From the human T2T-CHM13v2.0 reference genome, Homo sapiens, in the NCBI RefSeq assembly GCF_009914755.1, contig NC_060932.1: a stretch of DNA of 64,000 nucleotides; one strand, written 5' to 3'. Positions 3,674 through 61,456 of the stretch are shown piece by piece (positions within the stretch are counted from its first letter, which is position 1; each line of letters begins with the position of its first letter). The notes below the pieces were generated by a model. The model was not told the origin of the DNA and searched no databases. It saw nothing but the letters and a program-made list of their open reading frames with translations. Both the position numbers and the translations under genes were made by a program.

Positions 3674-3762
3674 TAATTGGATTAAGTTAATTGCAATTAA
3701 GGTACAGGTAACTGATTAGGTTAGGGTACGTTCCATGTCAGGTGACCAGAGGCAGTATAAAA
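3674..3762 (+). promoter_or_regulatory. Putative FAM90A promoter, copy 1: TAAT-N3-ATTA, TTAATTGCAATTAA palindrome, DUX4-type motif, TATAAAA
   Basis: TAATTGGATTA 3674-3684; TTAATTGCAATTAA 3687-3700; TGATTAGGTTA (reverse complement TAACCTAATCA) 3713-3723; TATAAAA 3756-3762, followed by a pyrimidine-rich stretch about 25-30 nt downstream. Confidence 0.7.
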
Positions 3763-4914
3763 GGCAGCCTGGAAAGCAGAGGTCCCTCTCTGCCCCTTCC
3801 TCCGTCGTCCTGGATGCTGCATCGCTTCCAGCCGGGCTGCTGCAGCACCTGCCCATCTCAGCGCCAGCCTGGGAAAGAAAGTAGACGTGTAATTTCAGGT
3901 TAGTTTCGCTGAACAATTGATTGTTTCACGCAATCCCTGAGGGGGTTTTGCGGGGGGTGTGGGGGAGAAAGAGACAAAGGAGGCCGAAAGAAACCGATCA
4001 CACTGGGGCTTGCTGGTGGGGTAGGATGTGTTCTCGTTACTAGTAATTCTTGGAACAGAAAACGAGAAAACATATCCGTCTCCACGTGTGGGAGAAGACC
4101 AAGATGGGAATGGGAAAAGAAATGTACTGCAGCATGCTGAATTGGTGGGTAAATGGAAAAAGGACTTTGGAAAAAAGGGGGGTTTGCCCTTCAGCCGTGT
4201 AAGACGTCGATACGATACGGCACTTCTTCCCCGTTTGTTCAGATGAATTCGTGTGGTGTGCGTAAAATACCAGGAAAATAAATAAAGAGGGGCTGGAGCT
4301 AAAGCCAAAAGATAGAACAGGAAAGATCATCACCTGCTAGTGCGGTAGAGAGGAAGGTAACTTCTCTGTATGAATTTGTGTTTGGAAGTTACCTAATGAA
4401 ATGGCAAGAGTAGCGATTCAAGTTGTCACAGGAAGCATCCCTTATCCGTGACGTCAAGCAGACCTGCCAAAGGGTGGCACACGCCATGCCCTGTGTCTTC
4501 GATCATTCTGTCCGTCAAGGGAGATAGAATCACCGTGTCTTCTACCGGAGTGAATCGTGAGAGACCTAAGTCCAGTCTCCAGAATCAGTTGTTTGTTTGG
4601 GGTTGAAATCTCAACCCCCCATACCTAGGCCACGGGCCCTGTGGCAGGTGGGATTTACTCTTGGACTAGGTAGTCATGGCAGAGGAACACACAATATCCG
4701 AGGATGCGCACAGCACATTGTGTTCTACAGATTTGACCGACTGGTGGTGAGGTCTCCTCATGACCACACAGGCAGGGAGTTAGCAGGTGGCTTCCTGTGG
4801 GTGTGTGAATATCCAACGTGCTTAACCATCGACATGTGTGTGTTTGTGTGTGTTTCAGGTGGCTCAAGAGTCCACCCCTGAAAAAGGCGGTCATAAAACC
4901 CCCAGGAGACGAAG

Positions 4915-7900
4915 ATGATGGCACGTCGGGACCCCAAATCTTGGGCCAAGAGACTGGTGAGAGCCCAGACCCTCCAGAAGCAGCGGAGGGCCCCAGTTGG
5001 GCCAAGGGCTCCCCCGCCCGATGAAGAAGATCCCAGGGTAAGTCTAGCCCTGGATCTCTTGGGTATCGGGGTGGGGGTGGGGACGGGGGGAGGGGGTGTC
5101 CCACGGTCCTCAGAGACTGGGTTGGATTCCAAAGAGTTCTGTCACCACCAGCCAGGTTGCTTTTCCCATCCAAGGTGGGCGTGGCTTGGGACCTTCTCCC
5201 CGGCCCGATAGGTCCCTTGAGAGACTCTTGGGGGCAACCTCCCTTTCTACTTCGAGTCCTGTATAGCCACGTTTGGCTGCGTTGTTGACATCGGCTTCAC
5301 CATCGTGCCCCTTGGAACCTTGAGTCCTTCCTTTCAGAGTTCCTCCGTCCCGTGGGCTTTGCGAGGGAACATCGTATCCGAACTCTCCCGGCACTTAACG
5401 GCCCCCATGCCGGTGTCCCCTCTTTGGAATCCTTATTCAGCTCTGAATTCACAATCCGTCCCAATGTTGACGTGGGATCGCTGCCTGTGGCTTCAGCTCA
5501 CTCACTGACATCACTTCCTTTCCACCCACAGCTCAAGTGCAAAAACTGCGGGGCCTTTGGCCACACGGCCAGAAGTACCAGGTGCCCCATGAAGTGCTGG
5601 AAGGCAGCCCTGGTTCCAGCGACCTTGGGGAAAAAGGAAGGGAAGGAAAACCTGAAACCATGGAAGCCCCGGGGTGAAGCCAACCCGGGGCCCTTGAACA
5701 AGGATAAGGGAGAGAAGGAAGAGAGACCAAGGTGAGCAGTGGGAGGGGTTTTCACCACTCTTAGGGTACTGCCTCCTAAGGACATGGTGTCTCTGCACCT
5801 GCACACCGTGTGCCTTTCCGTCTCCGGGCCAGGGAAGGAACGCTGCAGAGAAATAGGCTGGAGCTCCGTGTCCTCCGGGGTTCCACACCCAGGAGCTCCT
5901 TGGGCTCTGGGAGATTCAGGGACGGGGAGAGGCGGGGGCGCTTCGTGCAGGTTCCCCACGACAGCGGGAAAAGCGATGGAATCCAAATCACAGTCCTTAG
6001 TTGGGAAGCCTAGAGGGCCACCTGGAGGATGGGAAGGTTGGCACGTGAGGGAAGGTGCAGAGGCGGAAAGGGCACCAGATGTCCATTTCTGTATCACAAA
6101 ACACGGAATGGGGCTGGGCCCCAGACGGGGTTCTCCCTGTCTCCTGGGGAAAACCAGGGGGCACGGCCTGACCTTCTTCTGTTCTGCAGGCAACAAGACC
6201 CGCAGAGGAAGGCTCTCCTCCACATGTTTTCCGGGAAACCTCCAGAGAAGCCGCTGCCGAATGGAAAAGGATCCACGGAATCTTCTGATTATCTGAGGGC
6301 GAGTGTCACCCCGGGCCCCTGGTCTTTTTCTCCTCTAGGTCACCCTGGTTGATTTCCTTTCAGCTTCCCGTCTGCGGGAGGAAATCGGGGAACCCCTCTT
6401 TCTTGCCTTCTTGGGGTCAGGGACTCCACGATCCTTCCAGGTCAATTGGATTCCAGGTGAAGGCATCTGAACATGCCGTATTTCCTGTTGCTTTCTTTCT
6501 GTCCAATTATGGCAAGCCTGCCAACAACACGTTCCTAGCGGCATGAGGAAATTAGTCCCTCAGAGGCCCCAAACGTGGAGAAGGCGAAACCCAGAAACAT
6601 GCATGTGTTCAGAGAAGACGTCCCGAGTACCCTTGAGCCAGCAACCTGCCTTAGGAAGGGCATTAGTCCGTTCCACTTCATGGAAGGCTGAGTGGAGGCG
6701 CTTTGATCCAGTTAATGCCCAAGACGCGATCTTTTGAACAATGGTGTGCTTAGATCAGCTACACATAGCTCGAGAGCGCATCTTTCATGTGTCTTGTCCT
6801 GATCAGCACTCAGGTGGAGGGTCTGTCCCTACTTCCAAGGACCGCCTGTCGATACTGTACTAAGAATTTCATGGCGTGTGCACCTTGTCTTTGGATGTGC
6901 TTGATTTTCACGTTGGCTCCATGCTGAGGAACTTCTAACCTGTGTTGTTTCCTCTCTTTCAGGTTGCAAGCGGGCCAATGCCGGTCCACACAACCAGTAA
7001 GAGGCCGCGCTTGGACCCTATCCTCGCTGATCGCTCAGCTACCGCAATGTCTGGCAGGGGCTCCGTCTTGGCTTCACTGTCTCCCCTCAGAAAAGCCAGC
7101 CTGAGCTCCTCCTCAAGTCTTGGACCAAAGGAAAGACAGACAGGGGCTGCGGCCGACATGCCTCAGCCTGCAGTCAGGCACCAGGGCCGCGAGCCTCTCC
7201 TCGTGGTGAAGCCGACACACAGCCGCCCCGAGGGTGGCTGCCGAGAAGTTCCCCAGGCTGCCTCCAAAACCCACGGACTGCCCCAGGCCGCCAGACCCCA
7301 GGCACAAGACAAACGTCCTGCGGTGACCTCACTGCCCTGCCCGCCAGCCGCCACACACAGCTTGGGCCTAGGCTCCAATCTCAGCTTCGGGCCAGGAGCC
7401 AAGAGACCTGCCCAGGCTCCGATTCAGGCTTGCCTGAACTTCCCCAAGAAACCGAGACTGGGTCCCTTCCAGATCCCCGAAAGCGCCATCCAGGGAGGTG
7501 AGCTGGGGGCCCCGGAGAATCTCCAACCTCCGCCAGCCGCAACCGAACTTGGACCAAGTACGTCGCCCCAGATGGGCAGGAGGACACCGGCCCAGGTGCC
7601 CAGCGTCGACCGGCAGCCTCCGCACAGCACACCTTGCCTGCCTACTGCCCAGGCCTGCACCATGTCCCATCACTCAGCGGCCAGCCATGATGGGGCCCAG
7701 CCTCTCAGAGTGCTCTTCCGGAGACTGGAAAACGGACGCTGGAGCTCCAGCCTCCTGGCGGCCCCCTCATTTCACTCTCCTGAGAAGCCGGGAGCCTTCC
7801 TCGCTCAGAGTCCTCATGTGTCAGAGAAGTCTGAGGCTCCCTGTGTTCGTGTCCCACCGAGCGTCCTCTATGAGGACCTTCAGGTTTCCTCCTCCTCAGA

Positions 7901-7925
7901 GGACAGCGATTCTGACCTGGAGTGA
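4915..7925 (+). CDS. FAM90A: FAM90A family protein, copy 1, 464 aa; exons 4915-5037, 5532-5731, 6190-6298, 6963-7925
   Basis: MMARRDPKSWAKRLVRAQ...DPR | LKCKNCGAFGHTARSTRCP...ERPR | QQDPQRK...DYLR | VASGPMPVH...DSDLE*. Donors are GTAAGT, GTGAGC and GCGAGT; acceptors are pyrimidine tracts ending CAG. The 1,395 nt stay in frame and match the recalled FAM90A sequence and CCHC knuckle. Confidence 0.95.
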
Positions 7926-50797: not shown

Positions 50798-53700
50798 ATG
50801 ATGGCACGTCGGGACCCCAAATCTTGGGCCAAGAGACTGGTGAGAGCCCAGACCCTCCAGAAGCAGCAGAGGGCCCCAGTTGGGCGAAGGGCTCCCCCGC
50901 CCGATGAAGAAGATCCCAGGGTAAGTGTAGCCCTGGATCTCTTGGGTATCGGGGTGGGGGTGGGGACGGGGGGAGGGGGTGTCCCACGGTCCTCAGAGAC
51001 TGGGTTGGATTCCAAAGAGTTCTGTCACCACCAGCCAGGTTGCTTTTCCCATCCAAGGTGGGCGTGGCTTGGGACCTTCTCCCCGGCCCGATAGGTCCCT
51101 TGAGAGACTCTTGGGGGCAACCTCCCTTTCTACTTAGAGTCCTGTGTAGCCACGTTTGGCTGCGTTGTTGACATCGGCTTCACCATGGTGCCCCTTGGAA
51201 CCTTGAGTCCTTCCTTTCAGAGTTCCTCCGTCACATGGGCTTTGCGAGGGAACATCGCATCCGAACTCTCCCAGCACTTAACGGCCCCCATGCCGGTGTC
51301 CCCTCTTTGGAATCCTTATTCAGCTCTGAATTCACAATCCGTCCCAATGTTGACGTGGGATCGCTGCCTGTGGCTTCAGCTCACTCACTGACATCACTTC
51401 CTTTCCACCCGCAGCTCAAGTGCAAAAACTGCGGGGCCTTTGGCCACACGGCCAGAAGTACCAGGTGCCCCATGAAGTGCTGGAAGGCAGCCCTGGTTCC
51501 AGCGACCTTGGGGAAAAAGGAAGGGAAGGAAAACCTGAAACCATGGAAGCCCCGGGGTGAAGCCAACCCGGGGCCCTTGAACAAGGATAAGGGAGAGAAG
51601 GAAGAGAGACCAAGGTGAGCAGTGGGAGGGGTTTTCACCACTCTTAGGGTACGGCCTCCCAAGGACATGGTGTCTCTGCACCTGCACACCGTGTGCCTTT
51701 CCGTCTCCGGGCCAGGGAAGGAACGCTGCAGAGAAATAGGCCGGAGCTCCGTGTCCTCCGGGGTTCCACACCCAGGAGCTCCTTGGGCTCTGGGAGATTC
51801 AGGGACGGGGAGAGGCGGGGGCGCTTCGTGCAGGTTCCCCACGACAGCGGGAAAAGCGATGGAATCCAAATCACAGTCCTTAGTTGGGAAGCCTAGAGGG
51901 CCACCTGGAGGATGGGAAGGTTGGCACGTGAGGGAAGGTGCAGAGGCGGAAAGGGCACCAGATGTCCATTTCTGTATCACAAAACACGGAATGGGGCTGG
52001 GCCCCAGACGGGGTTCTCCCTGTCTCCTGGGGAAAACCAGGGGGCACGGCCTGACCTTCTTCTGTTCTGCAGGCAACAAGACCCGCAGAGGAAGGCTCTC
52101 CTCCACATGTTTTCCGGGAAACCTCCAGAGAAGCCGCTGCCGAATGGAAAAGGATCCACGGAATCTTCTGATTATCTGAGGGCGAGTGTCACCCCGGGCC
52201 CCTGGTCTTTTTCTCCTCTAGGTCACCCTGGTTGATTTCCTTTCAGCTTCCCGTCTGCGGGAGGAAATCGGGGAACCCCTCTTTCTTGCCTTCTTGGGGT
52301 CAGGGACTCCACGATCCTTCCAGGTCAATTGGATTCCAGGCGAAGGCATCTGAACATGCCGTATTTCCTGTTGCTTTCTTTCTGTCCAATTATGGCAAGC
52401 CTGCCAACAACACGTTCCTAGCGGCATGAGGAAATTAGTCCCTCAGAGGCCCCAAACGTGGAGAAGGCGAAACCCAGGAACATGCATGTGTTCAGAGAAG
52501 ACGTCCCGAGTACCCTTGAGCCAGCAACCTGCCTTGGGAAGGGCATTAGTCCGTTCCACTTCATGGAAGGCTGAGTGGAGGCGCTTTGATCCAGTTAATG
52601 CCCAAGACGCGATCTTTTGAACAATGGTGTGCTTAGATCAGCTACACATAGCTCGAGAGCGCATCTTTCATGTGTCTTGTCCTGATCAGCACTCAGGTGG
52701 AGGGTCTGTCCCTACTTCCAAGGACCGCCTGTCGATACTGTACTAAGAATTTCATGGCGTGTGCACCTTGTCTTTGGATGTGCTTGATTTTCACGTTGGC
52801 TCCATGCTGAGGAACTTCTAACCTGTGTTGTTTCCTCTCTTTCAGGTTGCAAGCGGGCCAATGCCGGTCCACACAACCAGTAAGAGGCCGCGCTTGGACC
52901 CTGTCCTCGCTGATCGCTCAGCTACCGCAATGTCTGGCAGGGGCACCGTCTTGGCTTCACTGTCTCCCCTCAGAAAAGCCAGCCTGAGCTCCTCCTCAAG
53001 TCTTGGACCAAAGGAAAGACAGACAGGGGCTGCGGCCGACATGCCTCAGCCTGCAGTCAGGCACCAGGGCCGCGAGCCTCTCCTCGTGGTGAAGCCGACA
53101 CACAGCCGCCCCGAGGGTGGCTGCCGAGAAGTTCCCCAGGCTGCCTCCAAAACCCACGGCCTGCTCCAGGCCGCCAGACCCCAGGCACAAGACAAACGTC
53201 CTGCGGTGACCTCACAGCCCTGCCCGCCAGCCGCCACACACAGCTTGGGCCTAGGCTCCAATCTCAGCTTCGGGCCAGGAGCCAAGAGACCTGCCCAGGC
53301 TCCGATTCAGGCTTGCCTGAACTTCCCCAAGAAACCGAGACTGGGTCCCTTCCAGATCCCCGAAAGCGCCATCCAGGGAGGTGAGCTGGGGGCCCCGGAG
53401 AATCTCCAACCTCCGCCAGCCGCAACCGAACTTGGACCAAGTACGTCGCCCCAGATGGGCAGGAGGACACCGGCCCAGGTGCCCAGCGTCGACCGGCAGC
53501 CTCCGCACAGCAGACCTTGCCTGCCTACTGCCCAGGCCTGCACCATGTCCCATCACTCAGCGGCCAGCCATGATGGGGCCCAGCCTCTCAGAGTGCTCTT
53601 CCGGAGACTGGAAAACGGACGCTGGAGCTCCAGCCTCCTGGCGGCCCCCTCATTTCACTCTCCTGAGAAGCCGGGAGCCTTCCTCGCTCAGAGCCCTCAT

Positions 53701-53808
53701 GTGTCAGAGAAGTCTGAGGCTCCCTGTGTTCGTGTCCCACCGAGCGTCCTCTATGAGGACCTTCAGGTTTCCTCCTCCTCAGAGGACAGCGATTTTGACC
53801 TGGAGTGA
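50798..53808 (+). CDS. FAM90A: FAM90A family protein, copy 7, 464 aa; exons 50798-50920, 51415-51614, 52073-52181, 52846-53808
   Basis: Intact; carries Q24, R30 and R367, plus private T178 and F461. Confidence 0.95.
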
Positions 53809-58445: not shown

Positions 58446-61400
58446 ATGATGGCACGTCGGGACCCCAAATCTTGGGCCAAGAGACTGGTGAGAGCCCAGA
58501 CCCTCCAGAAGCAGCAGAGGGCCCCAGTTGGGCGAAGGGCTCCCCCGCCCGATGAAGAAGATCCCAGGGTAAGTGTAGCCCTGGATCTCTTGGGTATCGG
58601 GGTGGGGGTGGGGACGGGGGGAGGGGGTGTCCCACGGTCCTCAGAGACTGGGTTGGATTCCAAAGAGTTCTGTCACCACCAGCCAGGTTGCTTTTCCCAT
58701 CCAAGGTGGGCGTGGCTTGGGACCTTCTCCCCGGCCCGATAGGTCCCTTGAGAGACTCTTGGGGGCAACCTCCCTTTCTACTTAGAGTCCTGTGTAGCCA
58801 CGTTTGGCTGCGTTGTTGACATCGGCTTCACCATCGTGCCCCTTGGAACCTTGAGTCCTTCCTTTCAGAGTTCCTCCGTCACATGGGCTTTGCGAGGGAA
58901 CATCGCATCCGAACTCTCCCAGCACTTAACGGCCCCCATGCCGGTGTCCCCTCTTTGGAATCCTTATTCAGCTCTGAATTCACAATCCGTCCCAATGTTG
59001 ACGTGGGATCGCTGCCTGTGGCTTCAGCTCACTCACTGACATCACTTCCTTTCCACCCGCAGCTCAAGTGCAAAAACTGCGGGGCCTTTGGCCACACGGC
59101 CAGAAGTACCAGGTGCCCCATGAAGTGCTGGAAGGCAGCCCTGGTTCCAGCGACCTTGGGGAAAAAGGAAGGGAAGGAAAACCTGAAACCATGGAAGCCC
59201 CGGGGTGAAGCCAACCCGGGGCCCTTGAACAAGGATAAGGGAGAGAAGGAAGAGAGACCAAGGTGAGCAGTGGGAGGGGTTTTCACCACTCTTAGGGTAC
59301 GGCCTCCCAAGGACATGGTGTCTCTGCACCTGCACACCGTGTGCCTTTCCGTCTCCGGGCCAGGGAAGGAACGCTGCAGAGAAATAGGCCGGAGCTCCGT
59401 GTCCTCCGGGGTTCCACACCCAGGAGCTCCTTGGGCTCTGGGAGATTCAGGGACGGGGAGAGGCGGGGGCGCTTCGTGCAGGTTCCCCACGACAGCGGGA
59501 AAAGCGATGGAATCCAAATCACAGTCCTTAGTTGGGAAGCCTAGAGGGCCACCTGGAGGATGGGAAGGTTGGCACGTGAGGGAAGGTGCAGAGGCGGAAA
59601 GGGCACCAGATGTCCATTTCTGTATCACAAAACACGGAATGGGGCTGGGCCCCAGACGGGGTTCTCCCTGTCTCCTGGGGAAAACCAGGGGGCACGGCCT
59701 GACCTTCTTCTGTTCTGCAGGCAACAAGACCCGCAGAGGAAGGCTCTCCTCCACATGTTTTCCGGGAAACCTCCAGAGAAGCCGCTGCCGAATGGAAAAG
59801 GATCCACGGAATCTTCTGATTATCTGAGGGCGAGTGTCACCCCGGGCCCCTGGTCTTTTTCTCCTCTAGGTCACCCTGGTTGATTTCCTTTCAGCTTCCC
59901 GTCTGCGGGAGGAAATCGGGGAACCCCTCTTTCTTGCCTTCTTGGGGTCAGGGACTCCACGATCCTTCCAGGTCAATTGGATTCCAGGCGAAGGCATCTG
60001 AACATGCCGTATTTCCTGTTGCTTTCTTTCTGTCCAATTATGGCAAGCCTGCCAACAACACGTTCCTAGCGGCATGAGGAAATTAGTCCCTCAGAGGCCC
60101 CAAACGTGGAGAAGGCGAAACCCAGGAACATGCATGTGTTCAGAGAAGACGTCCCGAGTACCCTTGAGCCAGCAACCTGCCTTGGGAAGGGCATTAGTCC
60201 GTTCCACTTCATGGAAGGCTGAGTGGAGGCGCTTTGATCCAGTTAATGCCCAAGACGCGATCTTTTGAACAATGGTGTGCTTAGATCAGCTACACATAGC
60301 TCGAGAGCGCATCTTTCATGTGTCTTGTCCTGATCAGCACTCAGGTGGAGGGTCTGTCCCTACTTCCAAGGACCGCCTGTCGATACTGTACTAAGAATTT
60401 CATGGCGTGTGCACCTTGTCTTTGGATGTGCTTGATTTTCACGTTGGCTCCATGCTGAGGAACTTCTAACCTGTGTTGTTTCCTCTCTTTCAGGTTGCAA
60501 GCGGGCCAATGCCGGTCCACACAACCAGTAAGAGGCCGCGCTTGGACCCTGTCCTCGCTGATCGCTCAGCTACCGCAATGTCTGGCAGGGGCTCCGTCTT
60601 GGCTTCACTGTCTCCCCTCAGAAAAGCCAGCCTGAGCTCCTCCTCAAGTCTTGGACCAAAGGAAAGACAGACAGGGGCTGCGGCCGACATGCCTCAGCCT
60701 GCAGTCAGGCACCAGGGCCGCGAGCCTCTCCTCGTGGTGAAGCCGACACACAGCCGCCCCGAGGGTGGCTGCCGAGAAGTTCCCCAGGCTGCCTCCAAAA
60801 CCCACGGACTGCCCCAGGCCGCCAGACCCCAGGCACAAGACAAACGTCCTGCGGTGACCTCACTGCCCTGCCCGCCAGCCGCCACACACAGCTTGGGCCT
60901 AGGCTCCAATCTCAGCTTCGGGCCAGGAGCCAAGAGACCTGCCCAGGCTCCGATTCAGGCTTGCCTGAACTTCCCCAAGAAACCGAGACTGGGTCCCTTC
61001 CAGATCCCCGAAAGCGCCATCCAGGGAGGTGAGCTGGGGGCCCCGGAGAATCTCCAACCTCCGCCAGCCGCAACCGAACTTGGACCAAGTACGTCGCCCC
61101 AGATGGGCAGGAGGACACCGGCCCAGGTGCCCAGCGTCGACCGGCAGCCTCCGCACAGCACACCTTGCCTGCCTACTGCCCAGGCCTGCACCATGTCCCA
61201 TCACTCAGCGGCCAGCCATGATGGGGCCCAGCCTCTCAGAGTGCTCTTCCGGAGACTGGAAAACGGACGCTGGAGCTCCAGCCTCCTGGCGGCCCCCTCA
61301 TTTCACTCTCCTGAGAAGCCGGGAGCCTTCCTCGCTCAGAGTCCTCATGTGTCAGAGAAGTCTGAGGCTCCCTGTGTTCGTGTCCCACCGAGCGTCCTCT

Positions 61401-61456
61401 ATGAGGACCTTCAGGTTTCCTCCTCCTCAGAGGACAGCGATTCTGACCTGGAGTGA
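58446..61456 (+). CDS. FAM90A: FAM90A family protein, copy 8, 464 aa; exons 58446-58568, 59063-59262, 59721-59829, 60494-61456
   Basis: Intact; 5' part resembles copies 6-7 (Q24, R30) and 3' part resembles copy 1 (P251, L268, T367). Confidence 0.95.

What the first reader, a model, noticed from the sequence alone, without database searches (positions are those of the whole stretch)
7863..7925. C-terminal LYEDLQVSSSSEDSDSD resembles the AF4/EAF DLxLS-SDE motif: FAM90A as an amplified transcription cofactor
Seen: after a long Pro/Ser/Ala-rich, probably disordered region with NLS-like KRPR and KKPR, the protein ends VLYEDLQVSSSSEDSDSDLE. Established, sequences recalled from memory: AFF1 (LEDDLQLSDSEDSD), AFF4 (LKDDLKLSSSEDSD) and EAF1/2 (LRNDLQLSESGSDSDD) carry a DLxLS motif plus an acidic serine run that engages the MED26 N-terminal (TFIIS-N-like) domain. 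Inference: with the TAF1-like knuckle and the DUX4-type promoter, this suggests a copy-number-variable primate system in which DUX4 induces a protein that links promoters to, or titrates, Mediator/super-elongation machinery in the early embryo. I know of no description of this function.
Basis: inference. Interest (0 to 1): 0.8.

Follow-up and report, generated by a model that had tools for sequence, protein, structure and literature searches.

The report
FAM90A tail: conserved TAF1-derived acidic motif
The acidic, serine-rich end of this FAM90A protein is a strongly conserved short docking-type motif that appears to be inherited from the general transcription factor TAF1 and fits a published Mediator-binding consensus, but its binding partner has not been tested.

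Summary
Window 7863-7925 (+) encodes VLYEDLQVSSSSEDSDSDLE plus a stop codon. This is the C-terminus of an intact 464-aa FAM90A copy (4915-7925) that is missing from the hub gene table.

LYEDLQVS fits the published AF4/EAF consensus LXXDLXLS (the MED26 platform) with one L>V change. An S/D/E run of the "SDE" type (the SL1 platform) follows directly.

The motif is not chance:
- It is the most conserved 12-residue window of the disordered last exon across FAM90 relatives.
- It is present across placental mammals. Lemur and tree-shrew copies carry the exact consensus (LYEDLRLS).

New here: a FAM90 family profile hits only TAF1 in the PDB, in two collinear places.
- The zinc-knuckle region matches TAF1 1233-1386 (E 1.2e-8).
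- The tail matches TAF1 "[17 protein letters not shown]". This motif is present in 120 of 120 TAF1 orthologs examined.

FAM90 therefore looks like a bromodomain-less TAF1 derivative that keeps the knuckle and the tail motif.

Transcriptional activator function is already published for FAM90A1 (tethering screen, TAD-seq, BRD2/3/4 partners), and DUX4 induction is also published. MED26 binding could not be tested here. Verdict: real, conserved, probably a phospho-regulated coactivator-docking or activation motif; the MED26 reading is plausible but unproven.

The parts
7863..7925 (+). The finding: C-terminal 20 residues VLYEDLQVSSSSEDSDSDLE plus TGA stop
7866..7889 (+). LYEDLQVS (residues 446-453): DLXLS-type core, LxxDLxVS; homologous to TAF1 LYEDLLMS
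   Evidence: Consensus LXXDLXLS from PMC8387021. Column conservation in relatives: L 0.93, D 0.85, L 0.95, V 0.72 (the rest L/I), S 0.98. TAF1 match.
7887..7916 (+). SSSSEDSDSD (residues 453-462): SDE-type acidic serine run with four S-x-x-D/E (CK2-type) sites at 454, 455, 459, 461
   Evidence: SDE motif described.
6963..7925 (+). Last exon (320 codons plus stop): mostly disordered Pro/Ser/Ala-rich region ending in the tail
   Evidence: No Pfam family at E<=1.
5532..5731 (+). Exon 2: zf-CCHC_6 zinc knuckle, homologous to the TAF1 zinc knuckle
   Evidence: Pfam PF15288, E 1.4e-23. Family profile against PDB TAF1 1233-1386, E 1.2e-8. hhalign probability 79%.
4915..5037 (+). Exon 1 (ATG at 4915); aligns to the TAF1 basic stretch just before the knuckle
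6190..6298 (+). Exon 3; with the start of exon 4 it aligns to the second TAF1 subdomain (about 1313-1386)
7698..7766 (+). QPLRVLFRRLENGRWSSSLLAAP: second most conserved block of the last exon; confidently predicted beta-hairpin
   Evidence: window mean 0.70. (strands at exon-4 residues 248-254 and 260-266, pLDDT 88-96).
6999..7010 (+). KRPR, NLS-like
7446..7457 (+). KKPR, NLS-like, in a conserved block NFPKKPRL
3713..3723 (-). TAACCTAATCA: DUX4-consensus-like site about 1.2 kb upstream of the ATG, once per repeat unit
   Evidence: 8 matches, 0.06 expected. The consensus used was recalled, not taken from a tool.

Best explanation
The tail is a short linear docking motif in a disordered region. 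It has a hydrophobic/acidic core, SVLYEDLQ(V/L)S, followed directly by a CK2-type acidic serine run.

It was inherited from the C-terminal acidic tail of TAF1. FAM90's N-terminal zinc-knuckle region derives from the same protein. FAM90 is thus a bromodomain-less partial TAF1 derivative that keeps the DNA-binding knuckle and this tail motif.

The motif most likely serves as a phosphorylation-tunable contact for a coactivator. It probably contributes to the transcriptional activation already shown for tethered FAM90A1. The leading candidate partner is the TFIIS-N-type domain of MED26, with SL1 for the serine/acidic run, because the motif fits the LXXDLXLS + SDE pattern of AF4/EAF proteins.

Shown here: existence, conservation, TAF1 homology, fit to the consensus. 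Inferred: docking and activation role. Speculative: identity of the partner (about 0.3 for MED26).
For: Conservation:
- LYEDLQVSSSSE is the most conserved 12-residue window of the last exon in an alignment of this exon with 76 of the 98 family representatives. Mean top-residue frequency is 0.85, against 0.70 for the next block.
- The most conserved positions are the fixed positions of LXXDLXLS.
- 58 of 98 representatives carry LxxDLx[LIV]S and 9 of 98 carry the strict LxxDLxLS.
- 35 of 40 named homologs from primates, tree shrew, bats, donkey, whales, camel, ruminants, canids, armadillo and rodents carry the relaxed motif.

TAF1 homology:
- The family profile against the PDB hits only TAF1 (3 distinct sequences), at the knuckle region (E 1.2e-8) and collinearly at the tail, [15 protein letters not shown].
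- With one target sequence, the tail domain scores E 8e-5 to 2e-3 in cat-family, chicken and coelacanth TAF1.
- A tail-only HMM scores 7.4 bits on axolotl TAF1. This was reached by 0 of 3000 whole-protein shuffles and 0 of 3000 shuffles of its acidic C-terminal 330 residues.
- 120 of 120 listed TAF1 orthologs carry S[VI]LYEDL[LR]MS[DE]GE.

Literature:
- DLXLS binds MED26 and SDE binds SL1 (passages read).
- TND-interacting motifs are a hydrophobic helix plus an 8-16-residue acidic, CK2-phosphorylated linker.
- FAM90A1 activates when tethered, has a TAD and binds BRD2/3/4.
- FAM90A1 raises the active fraction of a reporter, not its intensity.
Against: - No binding data exist, and no complex model could be made here.
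- This copy has V, not L, at the last hydrophobic position.
- Human and chimpanzee FAM90A1, the copy that was tested experimentally, has P in place of the motif's S.
- The position of the FAM90A1 TAD is not stated in the text I could read, and the table that gives it is closed.
- By the same group's model, EAF1 (DLXLS+SDE, no NKW) is not competent for activation, and FAM90A lacks NKW.
- The reported partners of FAM90A1 are BET proteins, not Mediator.
- AlphaFold2 gives no stable helix in the tail: three helical residues at exon-4 residues 299-301, pLDDT 55-64.
- The tail match to TAF1 alone is weak database-wide (7.5 bits, E 20). It counts only because TAF1 was already singled out by the knuckle.
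- In the composition-matched shuffles the best score was 7.3 against 7.4 observed.
Confidence: 0.5

Rival explanations
1. Generic acidic activation domain. The tail is an "acid blob" whose hydrophobic residues (L, Y, L, V, L) sit among acidic or phosphorylated residues. It contacts several coactivator surfaces in a loosely defined (fuzzy) way. The fit to DLXLS carries no partner specificity.
For: - Composition: 7 acidic residues, 6 serines, no basic residue, five bulky hydrophobic residues in 20.
- The 8-residue pattern alone is not rare. By a simple composition estimate using amino-acid frequencies I supplied from memory, about 90 matches are expected in a proteome of 11.4 million residues.
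Against: Conservation is position-specific, not merely compositional. L, D, L, V/L and S are each kept at 0.72-0.98 across placental mammals. The TAF1 version is present in 120 of 120 orthologs. That is more typical of a defined peptide-groove contact.
Confidence: 0.25
2. TAF1-mimic motif with a partner other than MED26. The motif binds whatever the invariant TAF1 tail binds, for example another TFIID or pre-initiation factor, a BET protein, or histones. FAM90A then either borrows that partner or competes with TAF1 for it.
For: - The closest sequence relative of the tail is TAF1, not AF4/EAF.
- FAM90A1 partners found by AP-MS/BioID are BRD2/3/4.
- The review of TND-interacting motifs that I searched does not mention TAF1.
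Against: - No partner of the TAF1 tail motif was found in anything I could read.
- TAF1's version also fits LxxDLx[LIVM]S plus an acidic run, so this rival and the MED26 reading are not mutually exclusive.
Confidence: 0.2
3. Phospho-regulated SUMO-interaction motif of the PML type: a hydrophobic core followed by a CK2-phosphorylated SSSEDSD run.
For: The PML SIM is VVVI followed by SSSEDSDAE, with CK2 sites that favour SUMO binding (passages read in PMC3660695). FAM90A has the same SSSEDSD string.
Against: FAM90A lacks a run of three or four V/I/L residues. Its hydrophobic residues are separated by conserved Y, E, D and Q. The SIM core rule used here is partly recalled.
Confidence: 0.05

Closest known systems
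C-terminal acidic tail of TAF1 (TFIID subunit 1), motif [12 protein letters not shown](D/E)GEDD
   Same: - Exact SVLYEDL, followed by x-(V/M)-S and an acidic run.
- Lies C-terminal to a homologous zinc-knuckle region in the same order.
- Present in 120 of 120 TAF1 orthologs listed.
   Different: - In TAF1 the motif lies about 157 residues from the C-terminus and is followed by D/E/G rather than serines.
- FAM90 matched no other TAF1 region in the profile searches, and its last exon has no Pfam family, whereas the TAF1 proteins carry bromodomain and other TAF1 Pfam domains.
- I found no published function for the TAF1 motif: paper search for 'VLYEDL' gave 0 papers. The one relevant FAM90A+TAF1 paper notes only the shared knuckle spacing.
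DLXLS + SDE motifs of AF4-family pSER domains and the EAF1 C-terminus
   Same: - Consensus LXXDLXLS followed by an S/D/E-rich run.
- DLXLS is the MED26 platform and SDE the SL1 platform.
- FAM90A has LYEDLQVS plus SSSEDSDSD in the same order. Lemur and tree-shrew FAM90 have the exact consensus.
   Different: - V for L in this copy.
- No NKW motif.
- No AF4 or EAF homology domains.
- No binding data.
- The actual AFF/EAF sequences could not be obtained from any tool, so only the consensus was compared.
TND-interacting motifs (TIMs) read by TFIIS N-terminal domains
   Same: Hydrophobic anchor residues followed by an 8-16-residue acidic linker rich in S/T that CK2 phosphorylates. The FAM90A tail has a 12-residue acidic serine stretch after the hydrophobic core.
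   Different: - No FxGF.
- The anchoring helix is not predicted with confidence.
- Here the acidic run ends the protein.
FAM90A1 as a published transcriptional activator
   Same: Same family, 93% identical over the last exon. It is an ORFeome tethering-screen hit, has a TAD by TAD-seq, and BRD2/3/4 partners. It raises the reporter's active fraction and is DUX4-induced 5.5- and 11.8-fold.
   Different: - The paper text I read does not place the TAD or discuss the tail, TAF1 or MED26.
- FAM90A1 has P where the 8p23 copies have the motif's S.
PML phospho-SIM
   Same: SSSEDSD CK2 run after hydrophobic residues.
   Different: No contiguous V/I/L core.

Membership tests
DLXLS/SDE motif pair (AF4/EAF type) | Consensus LXXDLXLS | tested here: inconclusive
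   This copy reads LYEDLQVS: four of five fixed residues, with V for the last L. 9 of 98 family representatives have the strict consensus and 58 of 98 have LxxDLx[LIV]S.
DLXLS/SDE motif pair (AF4/EAF type) | Adjacent run enriched in Ser, Asp, Glu (SDE) | tested here: met
   Residues 453-462, SSSSEDSDSD, are all S/D/E. The AF4 SDE is printed as SES-(T)-SDSDSSSDSE in PMC9036721.
DLXLS/SDE motif pair (AF4/EAF type) | Binds MED26 N-terminal domain (DLXLS) and SL1/TAF1C (SDE) | not testable with these tools
AF4 or EAF protein families | Family homology domains (ALF/CHD or EHD); NKW motif in AF4 | tested here: not met
   Pfam finds only zf-CCHC_6 in exon 2 and nothing in exons 1 and 4 (exon 3 was not scanned). 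No NKW in the last exon. The resemblance is at motif level only.
TND-interacting motif (TIM) | Short anchoring alpha-helix with F/V/L/I side chains | tested here: inconclusive
   Hydrophobic V, L, Y, L, V are present. AlphaFold2 gives only three helical residues (exon-4 residues 299-301) at pLDDT 55-64. Such helices often form only on binding.
TND-interacting motif (TIM) | Acidic linker of 8-16 residues with CK2-type S/T | tested here: met
   12 residues, SSSSEDSDSDLE, with four S-x-x-D/E sites. Definition.
TND-interacting motif (TIM) | FxGF (optional; needed for LEDGF/HRP2) | tested here: not met
   No F.GF in the last exon.
TAF1-derived protein (zf-CCHC_6 group) | Zinc-knuckle region homologous to TAF1 1233-1386 | tested here: met
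   Pfam PF15288, E 1.4e-23. Profile against PDB TAF1, E 1.2e-8. Axolotl TAF1, E 3.3e-5 in a database of 5.8 billion sequences. hhalign probability 79%.
TAF1-derived protein (zf-CCHC_6 group) | Collinear tail motif SVLYEDL + acidic run | tested here: met
   Shuffle controls 0 of 3000 and 0 of 3000. 120 of 120 TAF1 orthologs.
TAF1 orthologs | TBP-binding domain, DUF3591 core, double bromodomain | tested here: not met
   TAF1 proteins carry PF09247, PF12157 and PF00439. FAM90A has none of them in exons 1, 2 and 4 (exon 3 was not scanned). It is a partial derivative, not a TAF1.
Phospho-SIM (PML type) | Core of three or four consecutive V/I/L | tested here: not met
   The PML core is VVVI. FAM90A has V-L-Y-E-D-L-Q-V.
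Acidic activation domain | Activates when tethered | not testable with these tools
   Shown in print for full-length FAM90A1 and for at least one 60-aa tile whose position I could not see.

The most novel reading that the evidence does not exclude
FAM90 proteins are "mini-TAF1s". They are an offshoot of TAF1, seen so far only in placental mammals, that kept the two modules flanking the bromodomains: the promoter-DNA-binding zinc knuckle and an invariant acidic DLXLS-type docking motif.

In people, the DUX4-induced, copy-number-variable 8p23 array would then fill the cleavage-stage nucleus with a bromodomain-less TAF1 mimic. That mimic would either couple promoters to MED26/Mediator (and SL1) or compete with TFIID for them.

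A corollary is that the invariant TAF1 tail motif is itself an unrecognised MED26/TND docking site within TFIID.
Probability: 0.2. Interest if true: 0.8.

Novelty: new member of a known kind. Interest (0 to 1): 0.6.

Why it matters
FAM90A is a large, copy-number-variable gene array. It is switched on by DUX4, and FAM90A1 is about 128-fold higher in day-3 embryos than in trophectoderm. Its molecular role is barely known.

Three results turn a vague "activator of unknown mechanism" into testable hypotheses:
- The tail is a position-specifically conserved motif.
- The motif comes from TAF1.
- It fits the consensus that docks AF4/EAF proteins on MED26.

The hypotheses are that FAM90A is a TAF1 mimic linking promoters to Mediator, and that TAF1's own invariant tail motif is a previously unnoticed contact of this kind. 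Published kinetics agree with an initiation-side role: the active fraction of the reporter rises, not its intensity.

Tried and rejected
- phmmer of the 39-residue tail against PDB sequences: 0 hits at E<=10. Only the family profile reached TAF1, and no EAF or AFF chain appeared at E<=10.
- Tandem Repeats Finder on the window: 0 rows, because the 7.6-kb unit exceeds its longest period. Units were located by exact matching instead.
- Papers not held: Takahashi 2011, Cermakova 2021 and the journal version of the activator screen. What I say of the first two rests on citing papers and recall.
The main text does not place the FAM90A1 TAD.
- Complex prediction with MED26 was not attempted, because no MED26 sequence was available from an allowed source.
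- AlphaFold2 of the last exon: low confidence overall (pLDDT 56, pTM 0.29). It is informative only for the hairpin, so no fold search was run on it.
- phmmer of the hairpin block against the PDB: only non-significant sialidase hits, E 1.4.
- A first version of the shuffle script failed on a bad option and was rerun corrected.
- Phospho-SIM reading rejected for lack of a hydrophobic core.
- A chance match was rejected on conservation grounds.
Full report
**1. The observation**

Window 7863-7925 on the + strand encodes VLYEDLQVSSSSEDSDSDLE followed by TGA.
- It closes the last exon (6963-7925) of a FAM90A copy. The four exons are 4915-5037, 5532-5731, 6190-6298 and 6963-7925.
- They give an uninterrupted 464-residue protein with GT-AG, GT-AG and GC-AG introns.
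- This copy, and those at 50798-53808 and 58446-61456, are not in the hub's gene table, yet all 8 full copies in the window are intact.
- The tail is identical in 7 of the 8 full copies and in the partial copy ending at 277. The copy at 50798 has S461F.
- The last exon is 38.8% Pro+Ser+Ala and has KRPR and KKPR. It matches no Pfam family and is predicted mostly disordered.
- Exon 2 is the zf-CCHC_6 zinc knuckle (E 1.4e-23).

**2. Is the resemblance to the AF4/EAF motif real?**

The motif itself is published.
[quoted passage not shown] They also share an SDE motif rich in Ser/Asp/Glu, which associates with SL1. The EAF1 C-terminal domain that holds both motifs recruits TAF1C and MED26 (passages read in PMC8387021; PMC6339877; PMC9036721).
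- The window's LYEDLQVS matches four of the five fixed positions and has Val for the last Leu. Ten S/D/E residues follow directly, in the same order as in AF4.
- The tail also fits the general pattern of motifs read by TFIIS-N-type domains: hydrophobic anchor residues followed by an 8-16-residue acidic linker with CK2 sites (passages read in PMC9987994). It has no FxGF.

**3. Is it more than chance?**

The 8-residue pattern alone is not rare. A simple composition estimate, using amino-acid frequencies I supplied from memory, gives about 90 matches per proteome of 11.4 million residues. In the window's six-frame translation (127,996 codons) it occurs only at the nine FAM90A tails.

The stronger argument is conservation.
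- A full HMMER scan with the last exon found 98 cluster representatives. 58 of 98 carry LxxDLx[LIV]S (V 50, L 9, I 1 over 60 occurrences) and 9 of 98 the strict LxxDLxLS. 36 of 98 lack even a relaxed form; by eye, most are fragments or models with unrelated ends, and a few are near-variants.
- I aligned the exon with 76 of the 98. I dropped 22, chosen by eye, as short fragments, near-identical human pieces or models with out-of-frame ends. This choice may flatter the tail.
- In that alignment LYEDLQVSSSSE is the most conserved 12-residue window (mean top-residue frequency 0.85). Next come the QPLRVLFRRL block (0.70) and the NFPKKPRL block (0.63).
- The best-kept columns are L 0.93, D 0.85, L 0.95, V 0.72 (otherwise L/I) and S 0.98. 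These are exactly the fixed positions of the consensus.
- The index search returned 95 proteins. I picked 40 named homologs from it, one or two per species. They span primates, tree shrew, bats, donkey, whales, camel, ruminants, canids, armadillo and rodents. 35 of 40 carry the relaxed motif.
- The five exceptions differ only at the Ser position: human and chimpanzee FAM90A1 have P, and three Old World monkey A27P-like proteins have T.
- Lemur and tree-shrew proteins read LYEDLRLS, the exact consensus.
- The family and its tail are therefore widespread in placental mammals, not confined to primates.

**4. The unexpected relative: TAF1**

- A profile of alignment A1 searched against all PDB sequences matched only TAF1 (3 distinct sequences, E 1.2e-8), in two collinear places.
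  - Profile positions 3-149 (basic stretch, knuckle and the following about 80 residues) match TAF1 1233-1386.
  - Profile positions 417-450 match TAF1 1697-1727, [31 protein letters not shown].
- The tail match alone is weak database-wide (7.5 bits, E 20). But TAF1 had already been singled out independently by the knuckle.
- The same profile retrieved axolotl TAF1 from 5.8 billion proteins (E 3.3e-5). Its only relaxed DLXLS-type match in 1972 residues is [19 protein letters not shown].
- With a single target, the tail domain scores E 8e-5 to 2e-3 in cat-family, chicken and coelacanth TAF1.
- A tail-only HMM (23 positions, 66 of the 77 rows) scores 7.4 bits on axolotl TAF1. None of 3000 whole-protein shuffles reached this (maximum 4.5), and none of 3000 shuffles of its acidic last 330 residues did (maximum 7.3, so the margin is thin).
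- hhalign supports the knuckle-region homology (probability 79%).
- Of 740 TAF1-tail relatives found, the 120 listed (tetrapods and coelacanth) all carry S[VI]LYEDL[LR]MS[DE]GE, about 157 residues from the C-terminus.
- The only relevant paper among the 11 that mention both FAM90A and TAF1 notes just the shared Cys/His spacing of the knuckle. It defines the TAF1 DNA-binding region 1234-1375 as two subdomains (passages read in PMC5854669). FAM90 matches both subdomains.
- A full-text search for 'VLYEDL' found 0 papers.

**5. What is already known of function**

- In an ORFeome-wide tethering screen FAM90A1 was an activator. TAD-seq found a transactivation domain in it, and AP-MS/BioID found BRD2, BRD3 and BRD4 (passages read in preprint 10.1101/2021.07.30.454360).
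- The text does not say where the TAD lies.
- Tethered FAM90A1 raises the active fraction of a reporter but not its intensity (figure legend read in preprint 10.1101/2022.06.01.494187).
- FAM90A1 rises 5.5- and 11.8-fold on DUX4 expression (table rows in PMC5323140). It is 128-fold higher in day-3 embryos than in trophectoderm (table row in PMC3382239).
- A DUX4-consensus-like site (consensus recalled) occurs once per unit, about 1.2 kb upstream of each ATG: 8 matches against 0.06 expected.

**6. Most likely mechanism**

- *Shown:* the tail is a position-specifically conserved short motif in a disordered region. It is shared with TAF1 and fits the DLXLS+SDE and TIM patterns.
- *Inferred:* it is a docking site whose affinity CK2 phosphorylation of the serine run could raise. 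It contributes to the activation seen for FAM90A1.
- *Speculative:* the partner is the MED26 N-terminal domain, with SL1 for the serine/acidic run.
- *Against:*
  - There are no binding data.
  - This copy has V for L, and the tested FAM90A1 has P for S.
  - By its authors' model EAF1 (DLXLS+SDE without NKW) does not activate, and FAM90A lacks NKW.
  - The reported partners are BET proteins.
  - No confident helix is predicted in the tail.
- *Rivals:* a generic acidic activation domain; a TAF1-mimic motif with a different partner; a PML-type phospho-SIM. PML's core VVVI plus SSSEDSDAE is printed in PMC3660695, but FAM90A lacks such a core.

**7. Comparison and novelty**

- FAM90A is not a member of the AF4, EAF or TAF1 families in the strict sense. 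It has no AF4 or EAF homology domains, no bromodomains and no TAF1 core.
- It is best described as a partial TAF1 derivative carrying a new instance of a known kind of motif.
- Already in print: the activator function, DUX4 induction and knuckle similarity.
- Not found in the searches above: the DLXLS/SDE fit, the conservation across placental mammals, and the TAF1 origin of the tail.

**8. Verdict**

The finding is more interesting for the TAF1 link than for the AF4/EAF resemblance alone. The decisive test, binding to MED26 or another TFIIS-N-type domain, remains to be done.

Noticed in passing
window 4915-7925, 50798-53808, 58446-61456: Three FAM90A copies with intact 464-codon reading frames and canonical splice sites are absent from the hub's gene table.
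   Followed up: yes
window 7698-7766 (exon-4 residues 246-268): QPLRVLFRRLENGRWSSSLLAAP is the second most conserved block of the last exon. It is the only confidently folded element: a beta-hairpin at pLDDT 88-96. Its alternating hydrophobic and basic residues, together with the published BRD2/3/4 partners of FAM90A1, make it a candidate BET ET-domain ligand. That idea rests on recall. A PDB sequence search gave only non-significant sialidase hits.
   Followed up: partly
window 3713-3723 (-) and the same place in 7 further units: TAACCTAATCA, a DUX4-consensus-like site, occurs once per repeat unit about 1.2 kb upstream of each ATG: 8 matches, 0.06 expected. The consensus was recalled.
   Followed up: partly
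window 53795: A C>T change gives S461F inside the acidic serine run of the copy at 50798. It is the only tail variant in the window.
   Followed up: yes
window 4850-4915: A polypyrimidine-AG acceptor-like site (tttcag) lies about 55 bases upstream of the ATG. The real first exon and transcription start are therefore probably further upstream than the coding-only models suggest. This is inference only.
   Followed up: no
window, unit starts 4915, 12558, 20206 ...: The first unit is 7643 bases long and all later ones are 7648. The gene bodies themselves have no indels, so the 5-base difference lies between genes.
   Followed up: partly
window 6299-6300 and equivalents: The third intron uses a GC-AG splice pair in all 8 copies.
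   Followed up: yes
P0227, P0228 (human and chimpanzee FAM90A1): The chromosome-12 founder copy reads LYEDLQVPSSSEDSDSDLE, with Pro where the 8p23 copies and most mammals have the motif's Ser. This is a natural variant worth testing.
   Followed up: partly
P0099 (axolotl TAF1) residues 1840-1852 and 1943-1972: The TAF1 tail holds further L-S-E plus serine/acidic stretches downstream of the shared motif: AIQLSESGSDSD, HLSEDEDDSEE and a terminal DSDLDSD. These may be additional motifs of the same kind.
   Followed up: no
P0296, P0257: Two predicted proteins join FAM90-like sequence to unrelated domains: a USP17-like hydrolase in Propithecus and olfactory-receptor domains in Plecturocebus. They are probably fused gene models.
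   Followed up: no
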